A DNA stretch of 64,000 bases from an uncultured Dehalococcoidia bacterium (GTDB lineage: Bacteria > Chloroflexota > Dehalococcoidia > Lucifugimonadales > UBA3495): NCBI GenBank assembly GCA_964463525.1, contig CAYXDE010000003.1:18407-82406 (forward strand). Reading direction: 5' to 3'. The notes beneath the pieces were generated by a model. The model was not told the origin of the DNA, searched no databases, and saw only the letters and a list, made by a program, of their open reading frames with translations. How positions within the stretch are numbered: the first letter of the stretch is position 1; each line of letters opens with the position of its first letter. Position numbers and translations under genes: made by a program. Below are positions 6,217-40,777 of this stretch, piece by piece.

Positions 6217-7656
6217 CTAGTTGAACCTGACGTATTCATAGTCCCAAGGCTTGCCGTTGATGCCGCGCACCGGCGGGGCTATCCAGGCGGCGATCTTTCC
6301 CGGCTCGGTCACCCGGTTCATCAGGGTGCCGACGAATGTCTGGTCCTCTTTCGTTGGCAGCCAGTCCCCGTGTTGGGCCTGCCATTCGGCCTCGGTCAGC
6401 ACATCGCCGGACGGCGACACGTTGATGCCCGCCGACGCTCCTATATGGCGGTTGAAGAAGCGGTGGGGCAGGGTGAACCGGAAACCCACGCCGTGGGACT
6501 CCAGCACACCGTTCCAACGTTCCACACCGCGCTGCGAGTCTTTGATGTAGTCATCACGGAGACGCTCATTGACAGCGCTGAGGGCGGGCCTGTCCTCTTG
6601 GATGATGTGGCCGTCTTGGACCTGTAACACCGGCCAGATGCTGTCGTTCAGGCGGTGGTCATCGTCGAGTCTGGTTTCTTGGAAACGGCCCTTGAGACCG
6701 GAGTTGAAGTAGGTGGCGGCGTTGGTGGAAATCTCCTGCCCGAACAGGTCCACGGAGACAGAGAAGTGCAGATTGATGTACTTCTGAACGGTCTCCAGGT
6801 CCACAGCCCCACCTGCGCGCACCATCTTGGGGTCGTCGCTATGGACTTCTTTCATCACCTCACAGGTACGTTGGGCCACGCGCATGATGCCCGTCTCCCC
6901 GACGAACATATGGTGGGCCTCCTCGGTGAGCATGAACTGACAGGTGCGTGCCAGGGGGTCGAATCCCGACTCGGCAAGGGCGGCCAGCTGGTATTTGCCG
7001 TCACGGTCGGTGAAATAGGTGAACATGTAATAGGACAGCCAGTCCGGGGTGGGCTCATTGAACGCGCCCAGTATCCTGGGCTTGTCGGCGTCCCCTGAAT
7101 GACGCTCCAACAACATCTCGGCCTCTTCCCTTCCGTCACGGCCGAAGTAGGCGTGGAGCAGGTAGACCATGGCCCACAGGTGGCGGCCTTCTTCCACGTT
7201 TATCTGGAAGAGGTTGCGCAGGTCGTATAGAGATGGACAAGTGACGCCCAGGTGGCGCTGCTGCTCCACAGAGGCCGGCTCGGTGTCACCCTGGGTGACT
7301 ATCAGGCGGCGCAGTGGGGCGCGGTACTCGCCGGGAACATCCTGCCAAGCCTTTTCACCTTTGTGGTCCCCGAAAGTGATCGTCTTTTCCAAGTCAGGTT
7401 TGGCCAGAAAGATTCCCCACCGGTAATCGGGCATCTTCACGAAATCGAAATTGGCCCAGCCGTCGCGCTCAACGCTGATGGCCGTGCGCAGGTAGACGTC
7501 AAACCCGGTACTGCGGTCCGGGCCCAGCTCCTGCCACCACTTGAGGTAATTGGGCTGCCAGGACTCCAGTGCCCTTTGCAAACGCCGGTTGCTGGCCAGC
7601 CCCACGTTGTTGGGAATGCGCTCTGAGTAATCTATGTTGGAGTGTTCTACAGTCAT
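6217..7656 (-). CDS. boxB: benzoyl-CoA 2,3-epoxidase, oxygenase component BoxB
   Basis: N-terminus IDYSERIPNNVGLASNRRLQRALESWQPNYLKWW. Two diiron ExxH motifs (NVEEGRHLW, LTEEAHHMF). About 479 aa, as expected for BoxB. Confidence 0.9.
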   Translation of the reverse strand: MTVEHSNIDYSERIPNNVGLASNRRLQRALESWQPNYLKWWQELGPDRSTGFDVYLRTAISVERDGWANFDFVKMPDYRWGIFLAKPDLEKTITFGDHKGEKAWQDVPGEYRAPLRRLIVTQGDTEPASVEQQRHLGVTCPSLYDLRNLFQINVEEGRHLWAMVYLLHAYFGRDGREEAEMLLERHSGDADKPRILGAFNEPTPDWLSYYMFTYFTDRDGKYQLAALAESGFDPLARTCQFMLTEEAHHMFVGETGIMRVAQRTCEVMKEVHSDDPKMVRAGGAVDLETVQKYINLHFSVSVDLFGQEISTNAATYFNSGLKGRFQETRLDDDHRLNDSIWPVLQVQDGHIIQEDRPALSAVNERLRDDYIKDSQRGVERWNGVLESHGVGFRFTLPHRFFNRHIGASAGINVSPSGDVLTEAEWQAQHGDWLPTKEDQTFVGTLMNRVTEPGKIAAWIAPPVRGINGKPWDYEYVRFN

Positions 7657-7685
7657 GGTTTACTCGCGTTTTGCCGGGGCTGCAA

Positions 7686-9374
7686 TCACACCCGGCCTTT
7701 GTCGAATTGAGTCTTGGCGCCGGTGCCGTATAGCTGCAGCGCACCCTGGTCGCCCGAGGCGTTGGGACGCTGAAATATCCAGTTCTGCCAGGCGCTGAGG
7801 CGTCCGAATATCTTGCTCTCCATGGTCTCCGGCCCGCCGAACCGCAGGCTGGCTTCCATGCCTGTGAGGGCGTCGGGAGAAAAGCTGGCCCGCTCTTCCA
7901 AGGCAAGCCGGACTTCGTCTTCCCAGTCTATATCGTCTGGTATGAAAGTGACCAACCCAAGATGAAGGGCTGACTGGGCGTCCAGGTCGGTCCCGATGTT
8001 TTCCTGCACAGCCGTAACAGAGTCGGGTTGTCCCAGGAAGCGGCCTTCGAGGCGGGTGATCCCATTTACCATGGGTAGAGGGCCGAAATTCATGCCTGTG
8101 GGCCGGACTGACGCCGGGATGTCGGGATAGTCGTAATCGTCTTCGAAAGTGCCGTCTAGCATGTAGCACCGATCGGCGGCCAGGGCCAGTTCCAAAAGGG
8201 CGCCGGTGAAACAGCTGCCAGGCTCGATGAGTGTCACCAGCGACCGTGAACTGACGTCCAGGCGTTTCAGCGTGCGCTTCAAGTAGAGGGTAATCTCCCT
8301 GACCAGCCAGTCTGAAGCGTGTTCCAGCAGCAGGTCGTCGTAAGCCGCCACGAGAGCGCTGTCGCCCCGGGTCCGGAACACCCAGGTGCCGGACTCGCTC
8401 TCGTTGAGCCTCAGGTGGAGGATGGCATCATCCAACTGCCGGGCCAACGCCAGCGGCCAGAATCTCTCCCCCTGAGCGTGAATGTCCTCAAGGTTCGCCG
8501 GTGGAGGCGTGGTTGGGCCCTCGATCAGGATGTGGGCCACCCCCAACTCCCGGTCCAGCTCTATCTTGACGTGGTCGTAGCTGACCTTATCTGCATCGGT
8601 CTTCCGTTCCAGGGTAGTTAGCTCGATGCCCTTGGCCGAGGCGGGCCGGTCTGACTTACCGGAAAGTTCTGCTGCCATCTCTGATACGGCCTGATCGAAG
8701 GAAGAGCGAGGCGAGAGTTGGTCAACCAGCCTCCATTCCACGGCCCGGCTGCCCCGTACTCCTTCTGAGGTCGTGCAGAGAAAGTCGGCGTGGTCGTGCC
8801 GGACCCCGCGTTTGTCTACCAGGCGTGTCAGTCCGCCGGTGCCTGGCAGAACGGCAAGCAGTGGCAGCTCTGGAAGGGAGACCGTGCTTGAACCGTCGTC
8901 GATCAGCAGGATGTGGTCGCAGGCCAGGGCCAGCTCGTAACCGCCGCCCGCCGCTGGGCCGTTGATGGCGCAGATATAGGTCTGGCCGGAATTCTCCGAG
9001 GCGTCTTCCATGGAATTCCGGGTCTCGTTGGTGAACTTACAGAAATTCACTTTGAAGGCGTGGCCCGACTGGCCCAGCATCTTTATATTGGCGCCGGCGC
9101 AGAAAACCCGGTCTTTGGCGGACGTGACAACCACCGCGCCGACCTCCGGGTGCTCGAACCGCAGCCGTTGAACGGCGTCGTAGAGCTCAATATCCACTCC
9201 CAAATCGTAGGAATTGAGCTTGAGTTCATAGCCTGGGGTCAGAGGTTGGTCTTCTTGGACGTCCAGGCTCAGCCGTGCTATTCGCCCTTCGATCTCCAGC
9301 CGCCAATGTTTGTACTGGGCGGGGCTGGTGGCGAAATCCACAAATACGCTTTTTGCGGTGGGCGTGTCAGCCAT
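7686..9374 (-). CDS. boxC: 2,3-epoxybenzoyl-CoA dihydrolase (benzoyl-CoA-dihydrodiol lyase) BoxC
   Basis: Crotonase-fold N-domain (VFCAGANIKML). About 560 aa with a BoxC-like two-domain layout. The track start at 9407 is a TTG; I prefer the ATG at 9372-9374 (MADTPTAKS...). The start is uncertain by 11 codons. Confidence 0.85.
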   Translation of the reverse strand: MADTPTAKSVFVDFATSPAQYKHWRLEIEGRIARLSLDVQEDQPLTPGYELKLNSYDLGVDIELYDAVQRLRFEHPEVGAVVVTSAKDRVFCAGANIKMLGQSGHAFKVNFCKFTNETRNSMEDASENSGQTYICAINGPAAGGGYELALACDHILLIDDGSSTVSLPELPLLAVLPGTGGLTRLVDKRGVRHDHADFLCTTSEGVRGSRAVEWRLVDQLSPRSSFDQAVSEMAAELSGKSDRPASAKGIELTTLERKTDADKVSYDHVKIELDRELGVAHILIEGPTTPPPANLEDIHAQGERFWPLALARQLDDAILHLRLNESESGTWVFRTRGDSALVAAYDDLLLEHASDWLVREITLYLKRTLKRLDVSSRSLVTLIEPGSCFTGALLELALAADRCYMLDGTFEDDYDYPDIPASVRPTGMNFGPLPMVNGITRLEGRFLGQPDSVTAVQENIGTDLDAQSALHLGLVTFIPDDIDWEDEVRLALEERASFSPDALTGMEASLRFGGPETMESKIFGRLSAWQNWIFQRPNASGDQGALQLYGTGAKTQFDKGRV

Positions 9375-9512
9375 TTCGCTGGGTCCGTGCCGGAACGATT
9401 TGGTCAATCTTATCAGAACCGGCGCGTTCGAGCCGGTGCGTCACAGACAGCGTTGACAGGCGTCAGGGCCGTCAATACACTGCCGGGATACTTCGGAGAT
9501 TGGAGAGCAGCC

Positions 9513-22306: not shown

Positions 22307-23983
22307 TTAACGAACGATCAGGTTAGTGAATCCGTCGTCCCAGACCCGCTTGCCCAGGTCCCATGCGGATATGCGTTCGTTGGTCGCATATGAGATGTTC
22401 ATGTTGCAGCAGGTAAGTGACGAGTAGTTGTCGTACAGATATTTGTACAGGGCTTCGCTGCCCTTGACCACGTCGTCGGGCAGGATGGAAGCCTCCCAGG
22501 CTTCGATCAAACGGTCGATCTCGGGGTCATGGGTCGATGTGAATGCCCCGTCTGTGTGGTTGAGCACCCTCATCACGCCCTGGAATCCGGCAAGGGGCCG
22601 GTTGGGAGCGGCAAGGTAGCCGCTGCCATTGTCCAGGGTGTGCGCCAACCGCTCTTGGCGGTAGGAAGCATACTCGGTGGGAATGATCTTCACGTTGACG
22701 CCGATCTCTTCGAGATAAGCGGCCACGGCCTCAATGAACCGGGGACCCTCGGGCACGTCAGCCCTGGGGTAGGACCGGATCGCGATCTCTTCGCCGTTGT
22801 AAGCCGAGGCATCCAGGAGTCGCTTGGCCTCTTCAGGATCGTATGGGTAGGGAGTCAAAGAAGAGTCGACTCCGGGAGCGATGTCGGGCCAGGGATACGT
22901 CACGGCCGGTGAGCATTCTCCGGCGAAGATGAATTCGCAGAGCTCTTCCCGGTTGATGGCCAGGTTGAAGGCCTTTCTGACGTTGATGTCTTTGTAGGCC
23001 GAGTTGTCCCGCCACTGCTCGTGGAAGTACAGGCCCAAGACGCTGGCGCCGTTCTTGCTGAAGATGTTCAGCCCATCGGACTTAAGCTGGGGCGCCCGTT
23101 CGCGGGAGACGGAAATCACATCCACCTCACCGGCTTTAAGGGCGGCTATCCTGGTGCTTTCTTCGGGGATGATCCGGAATACTACAGTGTCCCAGACGGG
23201 GACGCCGTCACGCCAGTGGGTTTCCTGTGCTTTGAGTTCCATGAAGTCGCCCTTCCGCTGGTCGACCCAGGTGTAGGGTCCGCTGCCAATGGGAGATTTG
23301 GCGAATTCGTCGTTGCCGACAGACTCGGTGTAATTCTTGGGCTGGATAAGACCCTCGACGCCCTGGATGTCGGAGAGGTCCCAGTTGAGGAACCCAGAGG
23401 GCTTCGAGGCTGCTATGGCCAACTCAGTAGGAGAGACCACGGTGATCTGGTCCGGGCTTGCGATGGAGGCAGTGACCTTGGTCTTGTAGGAGGCCACTGA
23501 ATCTTCGCTGGTCATGAGCCCGATCGAGAATTTGACATCTTCCGCGGTTAGCGGGTCGCCATTGTGGAACTTGATGTCGTCTCTAAGGGTGAAGGTCCAA
23601 TTCATGGCGTCTGCGCTCATGGACCAATCCTTTGCAGCGCCAGTGCCTTTGTCCACTTCACCGTTGTCATTGGTGCCGGTCAATGCGTCAAACATGAAAC
23701 GCATGTAGGCTTTGCCAAAGGCGAATTCCTGCCACACGCTGGGAGTTTCGTTTCCAAGATCTGTTAGAGCGATGGTCAGTTTGCCTTCAGGTTTCGCTGC
23801 CGCCGGGACCGACGTGGCAACCGCGGTTGTGGGCGCGGGTACGCTGGTTGCAGACGACCCGCTGCTAGGGGCTTGGGTCGCCTCGGATTCCGATGAAGAT
23901 CCGCAGGCCACTGCTACGATAAGCATCATTGCAGTGAGCATAGAGATCAGAAATGGAATGCGAAAAATCCGGTTGTTAGCCAT
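22307..23983 (-). CDS. ABC transporter substrate-binding lipoprotein, family 5 (peptide/opine/nickel type)
   Basis: Start trimmed to ATG 23983 (MANNRIF...) behind GGGGAGGAA. Lipobox VAVACGSS and a Ser/Thr/Ala/Pro-rich linker. Family-5 SBP length and motifs. Confidence 0.88.
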   Translation of the reverse strand: MANNRIFRIPFLISMLTAMMLIVAVACGSSSESEATQAPSSGSSATSVPAPTTAVATSVPAAAKPEGKLTIALTDLGNETPSVWQEFAFGKAYMRFMFDALTGTNDNGEVDKGTGAAKDWSMSADAMNWTFTLRDDIKFHNGDPLTAEDVKFSIGLMTSEDSVASYKTKVTASIASPDQITVVSPTELAIAASKPSGFLNWDLSDIQGVEGLIQPKNYTESVGNDEFAKSPIGSGPYTWVDQRKGDFMELKAQETHWRDGVPVWDTVVFRIIPEESTRIAALKAGEVDVISVSRERAPQLKSDGLNIFSKNGASVLGLYFHEQWRDNSAYKDINVRKAFNLAINREELCEFIFAGECSPAVTYPWPDIAPGVDSSLTPYPYDPEEAKRLLDASAYNGEEIAIRSYPRADVPEGPRFIEAVAAYLEEIGVNVKIIPTEYASYRQERLAHTLDNGSGYLAAPNRPLAGFQGVMRVLNHTDGAFTSTHDPEIDRLIEAWEASILPDDVVKGSEALYKYLYDNYSSLTCCNMNISYATNERISAWDLGKRVWDDGFTNLIVR

Positions 23984-24195
23984 TGTTCCTCCCCAATATG
24001 TTTTTCCTGGTGAGCTCGCGATACTCGCGTGTATCGCGGTGCCCAAAAAGACCATGAGACGCAGACGTAACCCCAGGTTCCGCGAAGAATAAGCGACCGA
24101 GTTGATTTAGTCAACCAAATCCTACCCAGACGGGAAAGGCGTTGAGGCCCGCTATTCAGGCATCGATCACGCCTGGGTTAACCGCGGCCCGCTGG

Positions 24196-24705
24196 TTAGT
24201 CGAGGGAAAAGGGCTCGCCGTTCAAGGTCAAAGTCTCTTCGAAGGGTGTGGGATTGGCCACCGCCGCTCTTACCCAGCAGCCGTTCTTGGCGTTCCGAAG
24301 CATGGCTGCAACTTTCTTCGGCTCGTCAGGCGATTCTATCTCGTACCTGGTCTCAACTTTGGGCGCACCGGCAAGGATAGTACCGGCTAAGACCGAGCCT
24401 GAGATATCGAAATGCACCGAGGCTTCTGCCCGGACCTTGGTGATATTGATCTTCATTAAGTGAGAGTACCTCTCAATCTGGGTCATCTCTCAAAAAAGGA
24501 TTGAAGCCGCGAAATAATGCAACGGGGCCGGAGCGGTGGCGTTGCCGCCGATGGCCTCGGGCTCATCGCACATGATCTCGAACCCGCGTACCTTGGCCCT
24601 CCGGAGCATATTGCCCAGGTCGTCGACCTCGGCTTCGATCACCATCGAACGGCTGCTTTGCCCCGCTGGAATAGGTTCGTAATTTGGGCCTGATCCTGTT
24701 GTCAT
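24196..24705 (-). CDS. OsmC/Ohr-family peroxiredoxin-like protein with in-frame TGA at 24490-24492 (putative selenocysteine, residue 72 of 169)
   Basis: Track ORFs 24490..24705 and 24196..24486 share one frame and are separated only by TGA-GAG. The TGA falls in APLHYFAASILF[U]EMTQI, where OsmC/Ohr proteins carry the first conserved Cys. The second conserved Cys is present (NAKNGCWV). A hairpin lies downstream. AAGAGG SD precedes ATG 24705. Confidence 0.65.
24461..24475 (-). promoter_or_regulatory. putative bacterial SECIS minihelix for the OsmC-like gene
   Basis: UGAGAG-GUA-CUCUCA (6-bp stem, GUA apex) beginning 14 nt 3' of the UGA. Short, so only moderately convincing. Confidence 0.4.
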
Positions 24706-24803
24706 GAATAACCTCTTAGATCTTATTGGGATGCCTAGAGCGCAAACATTCTAAAGACAATCGTCTGGAAATTCCATGCTGTACGCGCCTGAAATAACCC
24801 TGG

Positions 24804-25679
24804 CTACAAGACCGCCTCGGCCACTCGCTCCAAGGCTTCGTGGGCCGACTTCTCATCGGTGGTGTTCAGCATGTGGACCACACGGTCCGCGTCTGCATCG
24901 GCAAACCGGCGGTTCATCTCCCGGTCGTGGGGCGCGTCCCACATCGTGATGTTCAGCTTTGAGGTGTCACGTCCGCGCGCCGTCATCAGTTCCTCGATGC
25001 GCATTCGAGCGCCGGACAGCTTATCCGGGTCCTCGTACTGGGACGTGTTGCGGGCCCTGGGGAGCCAACCGTCGCCGTAGGCTGCGATGCGGCGGGCGGC
25101 GCTCTCAAGCTCGCCGCCCACAAAGATGGGTGGATGAGGCTTCTGCACCGGCTTGGGAGCGCAGACCAAGGGAGGAAAATCGATATATTCACCGTGGTAT
25201 TCGGTGATCTCCGTGGTCCACAGCTCTTTCATCACATCCAGGTATTCGCGGGTCTGCTTCCACCGGTGAGGAAAGTCTGCGCCTAGAATCTCGGACTCAC
25301 CTTTGAGCCAACCCGCGCCAACCCCAAATAAGAACCGGCCGTTGGATATGTGGTCCAGGGTGGCTACTTCTTTGGCCAGGCGGATCGGGTTTCTCTCCGG
25401 CACCAGGCAGATGCCGGTCCCCAGCTTGATCTTCTGGGTGACCGTGGCGGCCCCGGCCAGGAATAGAAGCGGATCGATGATCTGGTTGATGCCGCCCTCG
25501 GCATAGAATTTGGGTATTCCTCCCTGCCGCCCAGTGGCCGGCGCGACTTTGAAATCGATGGGCACGATCCCGTGTTCGGGGGCCCAGAGAGACTCGAATC
25601 CCAGTTCCTCAACCTTGCGGGCCAGGTCCATGGTGTTGAAATCATGCTGGGTCATTAACAGAGCGATTCCGATATCCAT
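24804..25679 (-). CDS. LLM-class F420-dependent oxidoreductase
   Basis: Start trimmed to ATG 25679 (MDIGIALLMT...) behind GGAG. LLM motifs: GFESLWAPEH, KLGTGICLVPERNP, GRFLFGVGAGW. Confidence 0.85.
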   Translation of the reverse strand: MDIGIALLMTQHDFNTMDLARKVEELGFESLWAPEHGIVPIDFKVAPATGRQGGIPKFYAEGGINQIIDPLLFLAGAATVTQKIKLGTGICLVPERNPIRLAKEVATLDHISNGRFLFGVGAGWLKGESEILGADFPHRWKQTREYLDVMKELWTTEITEYHGEYIDFPPLVCAPKPVQKPHPPIFVGGELESAARRIAAYGDGWLPRARNTSQYEDPDKLSGARMRIEELMTARGRDTSKLNITMWDAPHDREMNRRFADADADRVVHMLNTTDEKSAHEALERVAEAVL

Positions 25680-25724
25680 GACACTCCTAGGGTTTGGCGT
25701 TGTTGTGAGAGGCGGACGAACAGG

Positions 25725-25766
25725 CACAATAAAAGTCCTCCTCTACGCGCTGTAAAGGAGGACTTT
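25725..25766 (-). terminator. intrinsic terminator after the ferredoxin gene
   Basis: 11-bp stem AAAGTCCTCCT/AGGAGGACTTT (25732-25742 / 25756-25766), followed on the minus strand by TTTTATT. Confidence 0.65.
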
Positions 25767-29479: not shown

Positions 29480-30643
29480 TTACCGGTTGGCGTAGTCGGA
29501 CTTGGCGCGGTCGATGGCTTGGACCCTGCCGGCGGTAAGCACCTCTTGGTGCTCAAAGGCCCACTTGTTGGAAGCAGCCGTGCTGAGTGTCGTTCCCTGG
29601 AACACAGGCATTACATAACGGGCCAGGAGCTCGAAGCTGTGGAGTACCTGCTCCCGCTGCGCCCAGTCGATGGTCTGTACCATGAATCCGCCGAATCCTC
29701 CGCTCCGCTCTTCCAACTTGCGTATTCCGGCGATGCAGTCATCCGGGTCTCCGATGATCCAGGTGCCGTTGTCGATCATGGCGTCGATGATCTTCTCTTG
29801 CGGGCCATCGGTGACTGGCTCGCGGCCCATGGTGTGTTCGAAATACTCGCCCTGATAGCGCCCTGCACCCAGCCGGGCCTGCTCAATGGCCTCTTTTCGA
29901 CTCTCTGCGATGTGGACCGGGATCACCAGACGCCAGTCGTCCCGGTTGACCACCTGGTTGTGCTCGGCAGCCGATTCCTCTGCCACGGCCCATAGTCCGG
30001 CCAGGTCACCTTCCGGTGCGCCCGGGTCTCTGGGCCGGGTGATAGTCAGTACGGATGCTCCGTACTTGCCTGCCAGGGCAACGCCGGCCGGTGATTGCAC
30101 CGATGCCACGGAGATGGGCATGTGGGGTTTTGTATAAGGGCGAAGCTGGAGCATCGCTTCCTGGAGCGTGAACCAGTCGCTCTTGACCGTGATAGGCTCG
30201 GTCTCGGTCATCAAGCGGAGGACGACCCCAAGAGCCTCGTCCATGCGTTGACGCTGTACCGTGTGGTCGATCCCCAGCATGTATGCGTCGCCTGGCAGTG
30301 CGCCGGGGCCAACGCCCAACATCACCCTGCCGTGGCTCATATGGTCGAGCTGGACCATGCGGTTGGCGACCATGAAAGGATGATGGTAGGGCAGGCTGAT
30401 GACGCCCGTGCCAAGCTTGATGTGCTTGGTGCGGTCGGCGGCCACGGCCATGAACAACTCGGGAGAGGAGATGGTCTCCCAACCGGCGCTGTGGTGTTCG
30501 CCGATCCAGGCTTCGTCGTAGCCCAGGTGGTCCAGCCACTGGACCAATTCCAAGTCGCGGTCCAAGGCCAGAGTGGGATTTTCGCCTACCCGGTGGAAAG
30601 GTCCCATGAATATCCCGAACTTCATCCGCTCTGGTAGAGCCAT
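29480..30643 (-). CDS. LLM-class flavin-dependent monooxygenase (limonene-1,2-monooxygenase-like)
   Basis: Start trimmed to ATG 30643 (MALPERMKFGIFMGPFH) behind AGGAGAG. Motifs GYDEAWIGEHHS and KLGTGVISLPYHHP. Its stop lies 6 nt before the MDR gene start. Confidence 0.85.
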   Translation of the reverse strand: MALPERMKFGIFMGPFHRVGENPTLALDRDLELVQWLDHLGYDEAWIGEHHSAGWETISSPELFMAVAADRTKHIKLGTGVISLPYHHPFMVANRMVQLDHMSHGRVMLGVGPGALPGDAYMLGIDHTVQRQRMDEALGVVLRLMTETEPITVKSDWFTLQEAMLQLRPYTKPHMPISVASVQSPAGVALAGKYGASVLTITRPRDPGAPEGDLAGLWAVAEESAAEHNQVVNRDDWRLVIPVHIAESRKEAIEQARLGAGRYQGEYFEHTMGREPVTDGPQEKIIDAMIDNGTWIIGDPDDCIAGIRKLEERSGGFGGFMVQTIDWAQREQVLHSFELLARYVMPVFQGTTLSTAASNKWAFEHQEVLTAGRVQAIDRAKSDYANR

Positions 30644-30930
30644 GTTTTGTACTCTCCTCATCATTTGACTGACCCTCGGCTACCCCTGGATCTACCCCTG
30701 GATATCGAATCCGGCAGACATAAAAAGGGGGTCGAAGGCGATTGGGCGCATTATAGCCGCACGCACTTTGCAATGCCAACGGTCCGGTTGCCCCGCTGGC
30801 CTAACCGTTGGTCCGCGGGTCGATTGACTCCGTCGGTTGCCGGTAGTAATCTACTGCCTGCCTTTAGCCATTAGGCGCTCCGGACCGGTGATCTGGTCCG
30901 GTATTTGAGAAAGAATTGGGAGGACTATTC

Positions 30931-40228: not shown

Positions 40229-40777
40229 ATGACCACCACCGAATCAGCGAAATTGATAGTCCTAGACCCTACCGCCGCTCCCAGGGAGATGGTCCAGGCC
40301 ATGGCCCCGGTGTTGGGCGGCCTGGGCGGGCAGTCTGTGGGTTTCTTATGGAACAGCAAGCCCAACGGCGACCTGCTCTTCGAGCGCCTTGAGAAACTGC
40401 TTAGAGAGAAATACGAGATCTCGGACGTGGTCTATAAGCGCAAGCCCACAGCCTCCATCCCGGCCAAGGATGAGGTTATCGACGAACTGGCTGGCTCTGT
40501 TCAGGCGGTGATCGTAGGGCTGGCGGATTGAGGGTCCTGCACGTCGTGGAGTATCCACGATGCAGTAGAACTGGAGAAGCGGGGCGTCCGCACCGTGGTG
40601 GTAGGCACCGACCGCTTCAAGCGTCTGGGCGACGTTGAGCGGAAGTCCCTGGGCATGCCTGAGCTGACCATGGCCATCGCGGAGCATCCCTTGGGCGGGC
40701 TGCAGGCCGAGAGATTGCTGGCCAAGGCCGACGGTCTGTTGGAGCAAGTGGTCGAGGGGCTGACCGGCCGCCGTTAG
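40229..40777 (+). CDS. UGSC-motif protein with in-frame TGA at 40529-40531 (putative selenocysteine, residue 101 of 182)
   Basis: Track ORFs 40229..40531 and 40595..40777 share one frame with no other stop between them. Read-through gives ...VIVGLAD-U-GSC-TSWSIHDAVELEKRGVRTVVVGTDRF...IAEHPLGG..., a UxxC redox motif. A strong hairpin starts 5 nt after the TGA. Confidence 0.75.
40537..40565 (+). promoter_or_regulatory. putative bacterial SECIS element for the UGSC gene
   Basis: Outer stem CUGCA/UGCAG (40537-41 / 40561-65), a CG bulge, inner stem UCGUGGA/UCCACGA (40544-50 / 40554-60), and apical GUA. 12 bp in total. Confidence 0.65.

What the first reader, a model, noticed from the sequence alone, without database searches (positions are those of the whole stretch)
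24196..24705. OsmC/Ohr-like gene interrupted by a TGA exactly at the first catalytic-Cys position: second probable selenoprotein
Seen in sequence:
- Minus-strand ORFs 24490..24705 and 24196..24486 are in one frame and separated only by TGA (24490-24492) and GAG. The joined product is 169 aa.
- The context is EPEAIGGNATAPAPLHYFAASILF-[TGA]-EMTQIERY, and later AMLRNAKNGCWVRA.
- A hairpin UGAGAG-GUA-CUCUCA lies 14 nt 3' of the TGA (24461-24475). Its GUA apex matches the apex of the hairpin after the other in-frame TGA at 40529.

Established knowledge:
- OsmC/Ohr peroxidases carry two conserved Cys. The first lies in the helix after the G(G)xxxxP.P.ELL segment, and the second in an AKxxC(P) motif.
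- The TGA aligns with the first of these, and the second is present as Cys.
- I recall OsmC-like Sec forms from marine metagenomes, but I have not verified this.

Inference: this is a Sec-containing hydroperoxide reductase rather than a pseudogene.
Basis: partly seen in the sequence, partly recalled or inferred. Interest (0 to 1): 0.75.

Follow-up and report, generated by a model that had tools for sequence, protein, structure and literature searches.

The report
Selenocysteine-containing OsmC-like redox protein gene
This is an intact gene for a small OsmC-type redox protein whose active-site cysteine is replaced by selenocysteine, encoded by a recoded TGA stop codon; it belongs to a selenoprotein family first described from ocean metagenomes in 2005, so it is real but not new.

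Summary
On the minus strand, 24196..24705 is one 169-codon reading frame with a single in-frame TGA (24490-24492). The joined protein passes Pfam OsmC (51 bits, cut-off 27.5) and NCBIfam NF041052 "OsmC-related (seleno)protein" (165.5 bits, cut-off 95). The TGA falls on the first conserved Cys of OsmC-like proteins (Cys-x-x-Thr in PDB 3cje, 2onf and 2pn2 and in a 42%-identical Cys homologue), giving the published motif UxxT. The second Cys is present (C143).

All 56 orthologues recovered from Dehalococcoidia/SAR202 species genomes carry TGA at this codon. Both halves are under equal purifying selection. The hairpin 14 nt downstream is conserved, with two compensatory base-pair changes and frozen synonymous sites. 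TGA is an ordinary stop elsewhere in the window. A second selenoprotein gene (UGSC family, TGA at 40529) has the same GUA-triloop hairpin at the same spacing.

This is a genuine selenoprotein gene, not a pseudogene. The family was described by Zhang, Fomenko and Gladyshev (2005) and has a curated model, so novelty is low. Peroxidase activity is inferred, not shown. The Sec machinery (selA/B/D, tRNA-Sec) is not in the window and could not be checked genome-wide.

The parts
24196..24705 (-). Complete coding sequence of the OsmC-like selenoprotein: 169 residues including Sec72, ATG start at 24703-24705, TAA stop at 24196-24198
   Evidence: sequence, translation, ORFs; Pfam PF02566 51.1 bits; NCBIfam NF041052 165.5 bits against a cut-off of 95
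24490..24492 (-). In-frame UGA read as selenocysteine (residue 72), first residue of the UxxT (U-E-M-T) redox motif
   Evidence: TGA in 57/57 orthologues. It aligns to Cys in 3cje, 2onf, 2pn2, 2opl and P0027. The preceding codon is TTT in 57/57
24459..24477 (-). SECIS-type hairpin inside the coding sequence. The core 6-bp stem plus GUA triloop is at 24461-24475. In most relatives the stem extends to 8-9 bp, but in the window the outer pairs are lost (CAA to CAC)
   Evidence: Core pairs formed in 100% of 43 distinct sequences; compensatory changes U-A to C-G (14 sequences) and A-U to G-C (2). Codons AGG, TAC and TCT are frozen. Energies. The alternative helix has no covariation
24277..24279 (-). 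TGC codon of Cys143, the second (resolving-type) conserved Cys, in the NGCW motif
   Evidence: Invariant in all alignments; aligns to the second Cys of 3cje and 2onf
24712..24717 (-). Shine-Dalgarno-like AAGAGG, 6 nt upstream of the ATG
   Evidence: Read directly from the sequence. No comparable element at a workable distance precedes the internal ATG at 24484-24486
40229..40777 (+). Supporting context: a second selenoprotein gene (UGSC family) with in-frame TGA at 40529-40531, followed by a 9-bp hairpin with a GUA triloop starting 19 nt after the UGA
   Evidence: NCBIfam NF041046 135.8 bits against a cut-off of 125; fold -18.4 kcal/mol, z = -2.46; spacing

Best explanation
The gene encodes a 169-residue member of the OsmC-like selenoprotein family (motif UxxT; NCBIfam NF041052; COG1765/YhfA branch of the OsmC superfamily) from a marine SAR202/Dehalococcoidia bacterium. 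During translation the UGA at codon 72 is not read as stop. A short hairpin within the coding sequence has a 6-9 bp stem and a GUA triloop that begins 20 nt after the UGA. It is inferred to act as a bacterial SECIS element that recruits SelB-GTP-Sec-tRNA(Sec), so that selenocysteine is inserted. Sec72 takes the place of the first, peroxidatic-type cysteine at the N-terminus of the long central helix of the OsmC fold, and Cys143 is the partner (resolving-type) cysteine. The most likely chemistry is a selenol/thiol redox cycle: Sec attacks an oxidant (probably a hydroperoxide), forms a selenenic acid and then a selenenylsulfide with Cys143, and is re-reduced by a cellular thiol donor.

Shown here: family membership, the TGA-to-Cys correspondence, purifying selection on both halves, and structural conservation of the hairpin. 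Inferred: actual Sec insertion, SelB binding, the substrate and the reductant.
For: - Family: PF02566 51.1 bits and NF041052 'OsmC-related (seleno)protein' 165.5 bits against a cut-off of 95.
- Column: the TGA aligns to Cys in PDB 3cje (CVMT), 2onf (CLLT), 2pn2 (CMLT) and 2opl, and in the Cys homologue P0027 (CLLT).
- Conservation: 57/57 species-level orthologues keep TGA. Variability at codon positions 1/2/3 is 0.136/0.098/0.355 upstream and 0.130/0.091/0.360 downstream.
- Hairpin: core pairs are 100% maintained, two pairs show double compensatory changes, 0/500 shuffles reach the observed covariation score, and slid controls collapse to 26-50% paired. Synonymous variability drops to 0.086 over the hairpin codons.
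- No reassignment: TGA ends 21 of 50 long ORFs in the window.
- Second Sec gene: a UGSC-family gene in the same window has the same triloop and spacing.
- Literature: the OsmC-like UxxT selenoprotein family is in PMC1088965, PMC2398784, PMC9312934 and PMC13188914. Selenoproteins and tRNA-Sec are reported in Chloroflexi (PMC1794560, PMC5389517).
- Fold: the Cys homologue is predicted to have an OsmC-like fold, with 3cje as best match at TM 0.75.
Against: - No selA, selB, selD or tRNA-Sec was found in the 64-kb window or in the flanks of the 56 related loci, so the machinery is assumed, not seen.
- The window's hairpin is short and weak: -5.9 kcal/mol, the weakest of 57, and no better than shuffled sequence.
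- No Rfam family matched it.
- No member of this sub-branch is known to me to have been assayed. The Glu of the Ohr catalytic triad (recalled from memory, in NPEQL) seems to correspond to a non-acidic residue here (APLHY), and similarity to Ohr and OsmC proper is marginal (E 0.083 and 0.29). The peroxidase assignment is therefore weak.
- There is no protein-level evidence of selenium.
Confidence: 0.9

Rival explanations
1. Pseudogene or sequencing/assembly error: a former Cys codon (TGC/TGT) mutated or was misread as TGA, and the gene is dead or the stop is an artefact.
For: A single window sequence cannot exclude this. One relative (L032) does carry an additional, probably erroneous or inactivating, TGA at a Trp codon. 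Public gene callers treat the locus as two fragments.
Against: TGA is at the identical codon in 57/57 independently assembled species genomes at 54-91% protein identity. The downstream half shows the same excess of third-position over first/second-position change as the upstream half. No frameshifts or decay are seen in relatives.
Confidence: 0.01
2. Split gene: translation stops at the UGA and restarts at the ATG two codons later (24484-24486), giving two polypeptides (71 and 96 aa) that assemble into an OsmC-like fold without the first catalytic residue.
For: An ATG lies 3 nt after the TGA and is invariant in 57/57. Gene callers use it as a start.
Against: The Met is part of the family motif and is also found in a Cys form that has no stop (3cje CVMT). 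No Shine-Dalgarno sequence sits at a workable distance, because the GAGAG abuts the ATG. A split would delete exactly the residue that defines the active site. The conserved, covarying hairpin with frozen synonymous sites has no role in this model but matches the SECIS expectation, and the same design is seen in the unrelated UGSC gene, which has no ATG after its TGA.
Confidence: 0.03
3. Recoding without selenium: the UGA is read through by a near-cognate or suppressor tRNA (Trp, Cys or Gly), or TGA is reassigned genome-wide (code 4 or 25).
For: Three database proteins (P0001, P0002, P0005) show Gly at this column, as if called under code 25. The Sec machinery was not observed.
Against: TGA terminates 21 of 50 long ORFs in the window, including well-identified genes, so there is no reassignment. 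The homologous residue is a redox Cys, for which Sec is the known isofunctional replacement. The family is curated as a selenoprotein and published as one. A dedicated hairpin at SECIS spacing is conserved. The Gly forms are most simply artefacts of the translation table applied to short ENA contigs (inference).
Confidence: 0.05

Closest known systems
OsmC-like selenoprotein family (motif UxxT; COG1765/YhfA, pfam02566), Zhang, Fomenko & Gladyshev 2005 (Sargasso Sea) and Zhang & Gladyshev 2008 (GOS); curated as NCBIfam NF041052 'OsmC-related (seleno)protein'
   Same: Same domain, same U-x-x-T motif (U-E-M-T), same marine origin, SECIS-like hairpin with G in a small apical loop, and Cys-containing homologues. 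The score of 165.5 bits is far above the 95-bit cut-off.
   Different: Nothing essential. The original reports had 3-5 metagenomic reads with no host assigned. Here the gene sits in a 64-kb context, and all 56 recovered orthologues come from Dehalococcoidia/SAR202 genomes.
PDB 3cje (Jann_2040, Jannaschia sp. CCS1) and other structural-genomics OsmC-like proteins (2onf Ta0195, 2pn2, 2opl, 1lql MPN625)
   Same: Closest solved relatives by sequence (E 2e-15 with the profile) and by fold (TM 0.75). The Cys-x-x-Thr motif is at the Sec column, and the second Cys (GC[FW]) is aligned.
   Different: They carry Cys, not Sec. Identity is only about 30% or less. I know of no biochemical characterisation of 3cje or 2onf.
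Ohr and OsmC thiol peroxidases (e.g. Xylella/Pseudomonas Ohr 1zb9/1n2f; E. coli OsmC 1qwi)
   Same: Same superfamily fold. There are two conserved Cys, and the first (peroxidatic) lies at the start of the central helix, which is the position held by Sec here. The likely mechanism is by analogy: oxidation of the first residue, then a bond to the second Cys.
   Different: Sequence similarity is marginal (Ohr model E 0.083, OsmC 1vla E 0.29). The Ohr Arg/Glu catalytic partners were not demonstrably conserved. The reductant (lipoyl proteins for Ohr) is unknown here. Peroxidase activity is not established for this branch.
Bacterial SECIS elements (E. coli fdhF/fdnG type, bound by SelB)
   Same: A hairpin within the coding sequence just 3' of the UGA, with a small apical loop that starts with G-U about 20 nt after the UGA. 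[quoted passage not shown]
   Different: It is very short (6 bp in the window, 8-9 bp in relatives), with a 3-nt loop and no bulged U. There is no Rfam match, and SelB binding is untested.

Membership tests
OsmC superfamily (Pfam PF02566) | Domain HMM match above the gathering threshold | tested here: met
   51.1 bits against 27.5, residues 54-156, spanning the TGA
OsmC superfamily (Pfam PF02566) | Two conserved Cys positions: the first at the start of the central helix, the second in a G-C motif near the C-terminus | tested here: met
   The first position is occupied by TGA/Sec72, aligned to Cys of 3cje, 2onf, 2pn2, 2opl and P0027. The second is Cys143
OsmC superfamily (Pfam PF02566) | OsmC alpha/beta fold | tested here: met
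   Tested on the 42%-identical Cys homologue P0027, not on the window protein itself: AlphaFold pLDDT 77, Foldseek top hits are all OsmC/Ohr, with 3cje at TM 0.75
OsmC-related (seleno)protein, NCBIfam NF041052 / OsmC-like UxxT selenoprotein family | HMM score above the curated cut-off | tested here: met
   165.5 bits against 95, covering 142 of 144 profile positions
OsmC-related (seleno)protein, NCBIfam NF041052 / OsmC-like UxxT selenoprotein family | U-x-x-T motif, with the in-frame TGA aligned to Cys of homologues | tested here: met
   U-E-M-T in 57/57 sequences; the motif is as published
Bacterial selenoprotein gene (general) | Conserved in-frame TGA with purifying selection on both sides | tested here: met
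Bacterial selenoprotein gene (general) | SECIS hairpin just 3' of the UGA with G in a small apical loop, conserved in orthologues | tested here: met
   Two compensatory pairs, core 100% paired, loop GUA invariant. Thermodynamic significance in the window alone is not met
Bacterial selenoprotein gene (general) | Sec machinery (selA, selB, selD, tRNA-Sec) in the same genome | not testable with these tools
   None in the 64-kb window or in the related flanks, and the rest of the genome is not available. Indirect support: a second selenoprotein gene in the window, and Sec use reported in Chloroflexi
Bacterial selenoprotein gene (general) | Selenium actually incorporated at the UGA | not testable with these tools
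   Needs 75Se labelling or mass spectrometry
Ohr/OsmC hydroperoxide reductases (functional class) | Membership of the Ohr or OsmC equivalog models, and thiol-dependent peroxidase activity | tested here: not met
   Ohr model 13.1 bits against a cut-off of 240; 1vla OsmC E 0.29. Activity is untested. The protein may work like these enzymes but is not a member of either subfamily

The most novel reading that the evidence does not exclude
Within SAR202/Dehalococcoidia, Sec may be fixed lineage-wide in this OsmC-like protein, with no reversion to Cys in 56 species. Its unusually minimal SECIS (a 6-9 bp stem with an invariant GUA triloop about 20 nt from the UGA) is shared with the unrelated UGSC gene, which would point to a lineage-specific SelB recognition rule. 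The recurrent adjacency to luciferase-like flavin monooxygenases could mean the protein detoxifies peroxides produced by the expanded monooxygenase repertoire that SAR202 uses to oxidise recalcitrant organic matter.
Probability: 0.15. Interest if true: 0.4.

Novelty: already known. Interest (0 to 1): 0.2.

Why it matters
The practical value is in annotation, not discovery. Public gene calls for this locus in SAR202/Dehalococcoidia MAGs are split into a 71-aa and a 96-aa fragment labelled 'hypothetical' or 'OsmC family protein' (a 288-member fragment cluster), so the selenoprotein is systematically missed in a globally abundant deep-ocean lineage. Recognising it, together with the UGSC gene in the same window, shows that this organism decodes Sec. 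It also assigns a host lineage to a selenoprotein family first seen only as anonymous metagenomic reads. It does not change what is understood about Sec decoding or OsmC chemistry.

Tried and rejected
- Thermodynamic test of the window hairpin: not significant (z = +0.76 and -0.10). The minimum-energy fold pairs the UGA itself with CUCUCA. That alternative helix was tested on the alignment and has no compensatory change, and it breaks where it varies, so it was rejected in favour of the local hairpin.
- Rfam scan of the window: only tRNA-Pro.
- Search for Sec machinery: ARAGORN on the window and on 56 loci, and NCBIfam on ten size-appropriate ORFs. Nothing was found. The 619-aa ORF next to tRNA-Pro is a gamma-glutamyltransferase, not SelB.
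- Conserved-operon search: synteny (LLM oxidoreductase, OsmC-Sec, ABC transporter) holds only in the closest clade. More distant clades have other neighbours: an unannotated ~230-aa ORF and a luciferase-like monooxygenase. No conserved reductase partner emerged.
- Window-wide screen for further TGA-plus-hairpin genes: 53 raw candidates, of which only the OsmC-like and UGSC genes have protein-like flanks.
The Cys homologue P0027 was used instead.
- Literature search for SAR202 plus selenocysteine found nothing specific.

Full report
**1. What is in the sequence**

On the minus strand, 24705 to 24196 reads as a single frame of 170 codons: MTTGSG...ASILF-TGA-EMTQIERY...NAKNGCWVRA...FSLD-TAA. The mechanical ORF list gives 24490..24705 (71 aa, ending in TGA at 24490-24492) and 24196..24486 (96 aa, starting at the ATG two codons after the TGA). 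An AAGAGG Shine-Dalgarno-like element lies 6 nt upstream of the first ATG (24712-24717). The hairpin UGAGAG-GUA-CUCUCA is at 24461-24475, 14 nt after the TGA.

**2. Family and the TGA column**

- With U written as C, the joined protein matches Pfam OsmC (PF02566, 51.1 bits, cut-off 27.5, residues 54-156, so the match spans the TGA).
- It also matches NCBIfam NF041052 "OsmC-related (seleno)protein" (165.5 bits, cut-off 95, profile positions 2-144 of 144).
- Against the PDB, the best relative is 3cje, an OsmC-like protein. There the TGA aligns to the Cys of GCVMTQIRAF and Cys143 aligns to the Cys of KKGCFLE.
- A profile of 14 full-length family members again finds 3cje (E 2e-15), then 2onf, 2pn2 and 2opl. 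All have Cys-x-x-Thr at the TGA column, and all are uncharacterised structural-genomics proteins.
- A 42%-identical database homologue (P0027) has Cys at this column: ASIGFCLLTQIERYS.
- The AlphaFold model of P0027 (pLDDT 77) matches OsmC-like, OsmC and Ohr structures, with 3cje first (TM 0.75).
- Canonical Ohr and OsmC are only marginal by sequence (Ohr model 13.1 bits against a cut-off of 240; 1vla E 0.29).

**3. Comparative test**

A scan of one genome per GTDB species returned 56 loci. All are labelled Dehalococcoidia, Chloroflexota or SAR202, except one 3.3-kb contig binned as Pseudomonadales. Each has a match running through the TGA.

- Every locus has an in-frame stop at the same column with conserved flanks, F*EMTQIERYS, and the codon is TGA in 57/57.
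- The fraction of non-majority bases at codon positions 1/2/3 is 0.136/0.098/0.355 for the 28 codons upstream. It is 0.130/0.091/0.360 for codons +10 to +40 downstream. Both halves are therefore under equal purifying selection, which a pseudogene would not show.
- Most database proteins for this family are 86-96-aa C-terminal fragments, which shows that gene callers stop at the TGA. Three ENA proteins show Gly at the column, most simply explained as TGA read under table 25 (inference).

**4. The hairpin**

- Over codons +1 to +9, third-position variability falls to 0.086. AGG (Arg, six-fold degenerate), TAC and TCT are invariant or change only with compensation. The preceding Phe codon is TTT in 57/57, although another Phe seven codons upstream is TTC in 48/57.
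- On the 57-sequence alignment (43 distinct rows), the helix 16-23/27-34 has its six core pairs formed in 100% of sequences. Pair 18-32 switches U-A to C-G in 14 sequences: a synonymous Ile ATT-to-ATC change paired with a Gln-to-Arg CAA-to-CGA change. Pair 20-30 switches A-U to G-C in 2 sequences: Glu to Gly paired with a synonymous TCT-to-TCC change.
- None of 500 shuffles reaches the observed covariation score, and sliding the partner by 1 to 3 columns drops pairing to 26-50%.
- The alternative helix favoured by the window's minimum-energy fold (UGA-GAG pairing with CUCUCA) has no compensatory change and breaks in 6 sequences.
- The GUA loop is invariant and starts 20 nt after the UGA. [quoted passage not shown] From memory, it also meets the bSECISearch constraints: 16-37 nt from the UGA to the loop, and G within the first two loop bases.
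- The window's copy is the weakest of all (-5.9 kcal/mol against a mean of -8.95) because His (CAC) replaces Gln/Arg and breaks the seventh pair. On its own it is not better than shuffled sequence.

**5. Is Sec decoded in this organism?**

- TGA ends 21 of 50 long ORFs in the window, so the codon is not reassigned.
- The TGA at 40529 lies in a gene that passes NCBIfam NF041046 "UGSC family (seleno)protein" (135.8 bits against 125). It is followed by a strong hairpin (-18.4 kcal/mol, z = -2.46) whose triloop is also GUA and starts 19 nt after the UGA.
- A window-wide screen found no further convincing candidates.
- No tRNA-Sec or selA/selB/selD lies in the window, and none lies in the flanks of the 56 loci. 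The machinery could not be verified.
- Published surveys report selenoproteins and tRNA-Sec in Chloroflexi (PMC1794560, PMC5389517).

**6. Context**

- Upstream on the same strand is an F420-type luciferase-like (LLM) oxidoreductase (24804..25727). Downstream are an ABC-transporter substrate-binding protein (22307..24055) and its permeases. This order is kept only in the closest clade (L001-L013, L032).
- In more distant clades the neighbours are an unannotated ~230-aa ORF and another luciferase-like monooxygenase.
- No conserved reductase partner was found.
- No sigma-70-like promoter or intrinsic terminator that clearly bounds the gene was detected.

**7. Mechanism**

The best-supported reading is SelB/SECIS-dependent insertion of Sec at codon 72 of an OsmC-fold redox protein. 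Sec replaces the first (peroxidatic-type) Cys, and Cys143 is its partner. A hydroperoxide-reducing cycle through a selenenic acid and a selenenylsulfide is proposed by analogy with Ohr and OsmC. This step is inferred. The protein belongs to the COG1765/YhfA-type branch (PMC9312934), and its closest solved relatives are uncharacterised.

**8. Comparison with what is known, and verdict**

An "OsmC-like protein" selenoprotein family with redox motif UxxT was reported from the Sargasso Sea in 2005 (3 sequences, COG1765). It was found again in GOS (5 Sec forms, 161 Cys homologues), and it is listed in the 2022 and 2026 reviews. NCBI curates a selenoprotein-aware HMM for it. The window gene has the same motif (U-E-M-T) and passes that model easily. 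The finding is therefore correct and well supported, but already known.

What this analysis adds is modest:
- a host lineage (SAR202/Dehalococcoidia) in which the Sec form is universal among the 56 recovered orthologues;
- covariation support for a very small GUA-triloop SECIS;
- the observation that public MAG annotations split the gene into fragments.

Noticed in passing
window 40229-40777 (+), TGA at 40529-40531: A second selenoprotein gene, of the UGSC family (NF041046, 135.8 bits against 125). Its 9-bp hairpin has the same GUA triloop, 19 nt after the UGA, as the OsmC-like gene's hairpin. This suggests a common SelB recognition motif in this organism.
   Followed up: partly
L032:8312-8320 (DCWQ01000004.1, UBA2158): This orthologue has a second in-frame TGA that replaces the Trp codon right after the resolving Cys (GGT TGC TGA GTG; the window has TGG). 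It is 1 of 57 and has no convincing hairpin after it, so it is probably an assembly error or a lineage-specific inactivation.
   Followed up: partly
window 24493-24495 (-), codon -1 relative to the TGA: The Phe codon before the UGA is TTT in 57/57 orthologues, although another Phe seven codons upstream is TTC in 48/57. The UUU-UGA-G context appears to be constrained at the nucleotide level, possibly to tune termination against Sec insertion.
   Followed up: no
window 24459-24477 (-): The window's SECIS stem is the shortest and weakest of the 57 (-5.9 against a mean of -8.95 kcal/mol). A Gln/Arg-to-His change (CAA/CGA to CAC) removes the seventh base pair.
   Followed up: yes
window 24804-25727 (-) and 29480-30664 (-); L041:11249-12307, L012:10546-11715 and others: Luciferase-like (LLM/F420-type) oxidoreductase genes lie next to the OsmC-Sec gene both in the window's clade and, in a different arrangement, in distant clades. 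This could be functional (peroxide by-products of flavin monooxygenases), or it could just reflect the many LLM paralogues in SAR202.
   Followed up: partly
database proteins P0033-P0072; P0001, P0002, P0005: Public gene calls split the gene into 71-aa and 86-96-aa fragments named 'hypothetical' or 'OsmC family protein' (288-member cluster). Three ENA calls show Gly at the TGA column, as if translated with genetic code 25.
   Followed up: partly
L008 (JAKUTG010000274.1, 3.3-kb contig): This contig is labelled Pseudomonadales but carries an orthologue 86% identical to the window's, plus the same upstream LLM gene as the SAR202 loci. It is probably a mis-binned SAR202 contig.
   Followed up: no
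window 6217-9407 (-): Benzoyl-CoA epoxidase BoxB (842 bits) and 2,3-epoxybenzoyl-CoA dihydrolase BoxC (898 bits) are present, indicating an aerobic benzoyl-CoA (box) aromatic degradation pathway in this SAR202 genome.
   Followed up: no
L051:10001-10480: This orthologue lacks three residues (ARN) just before the GCW motif, within the short repeat RNARNG. It looks like an in-frame slippage deletion next to the resolving Cys.
   Followed up: no
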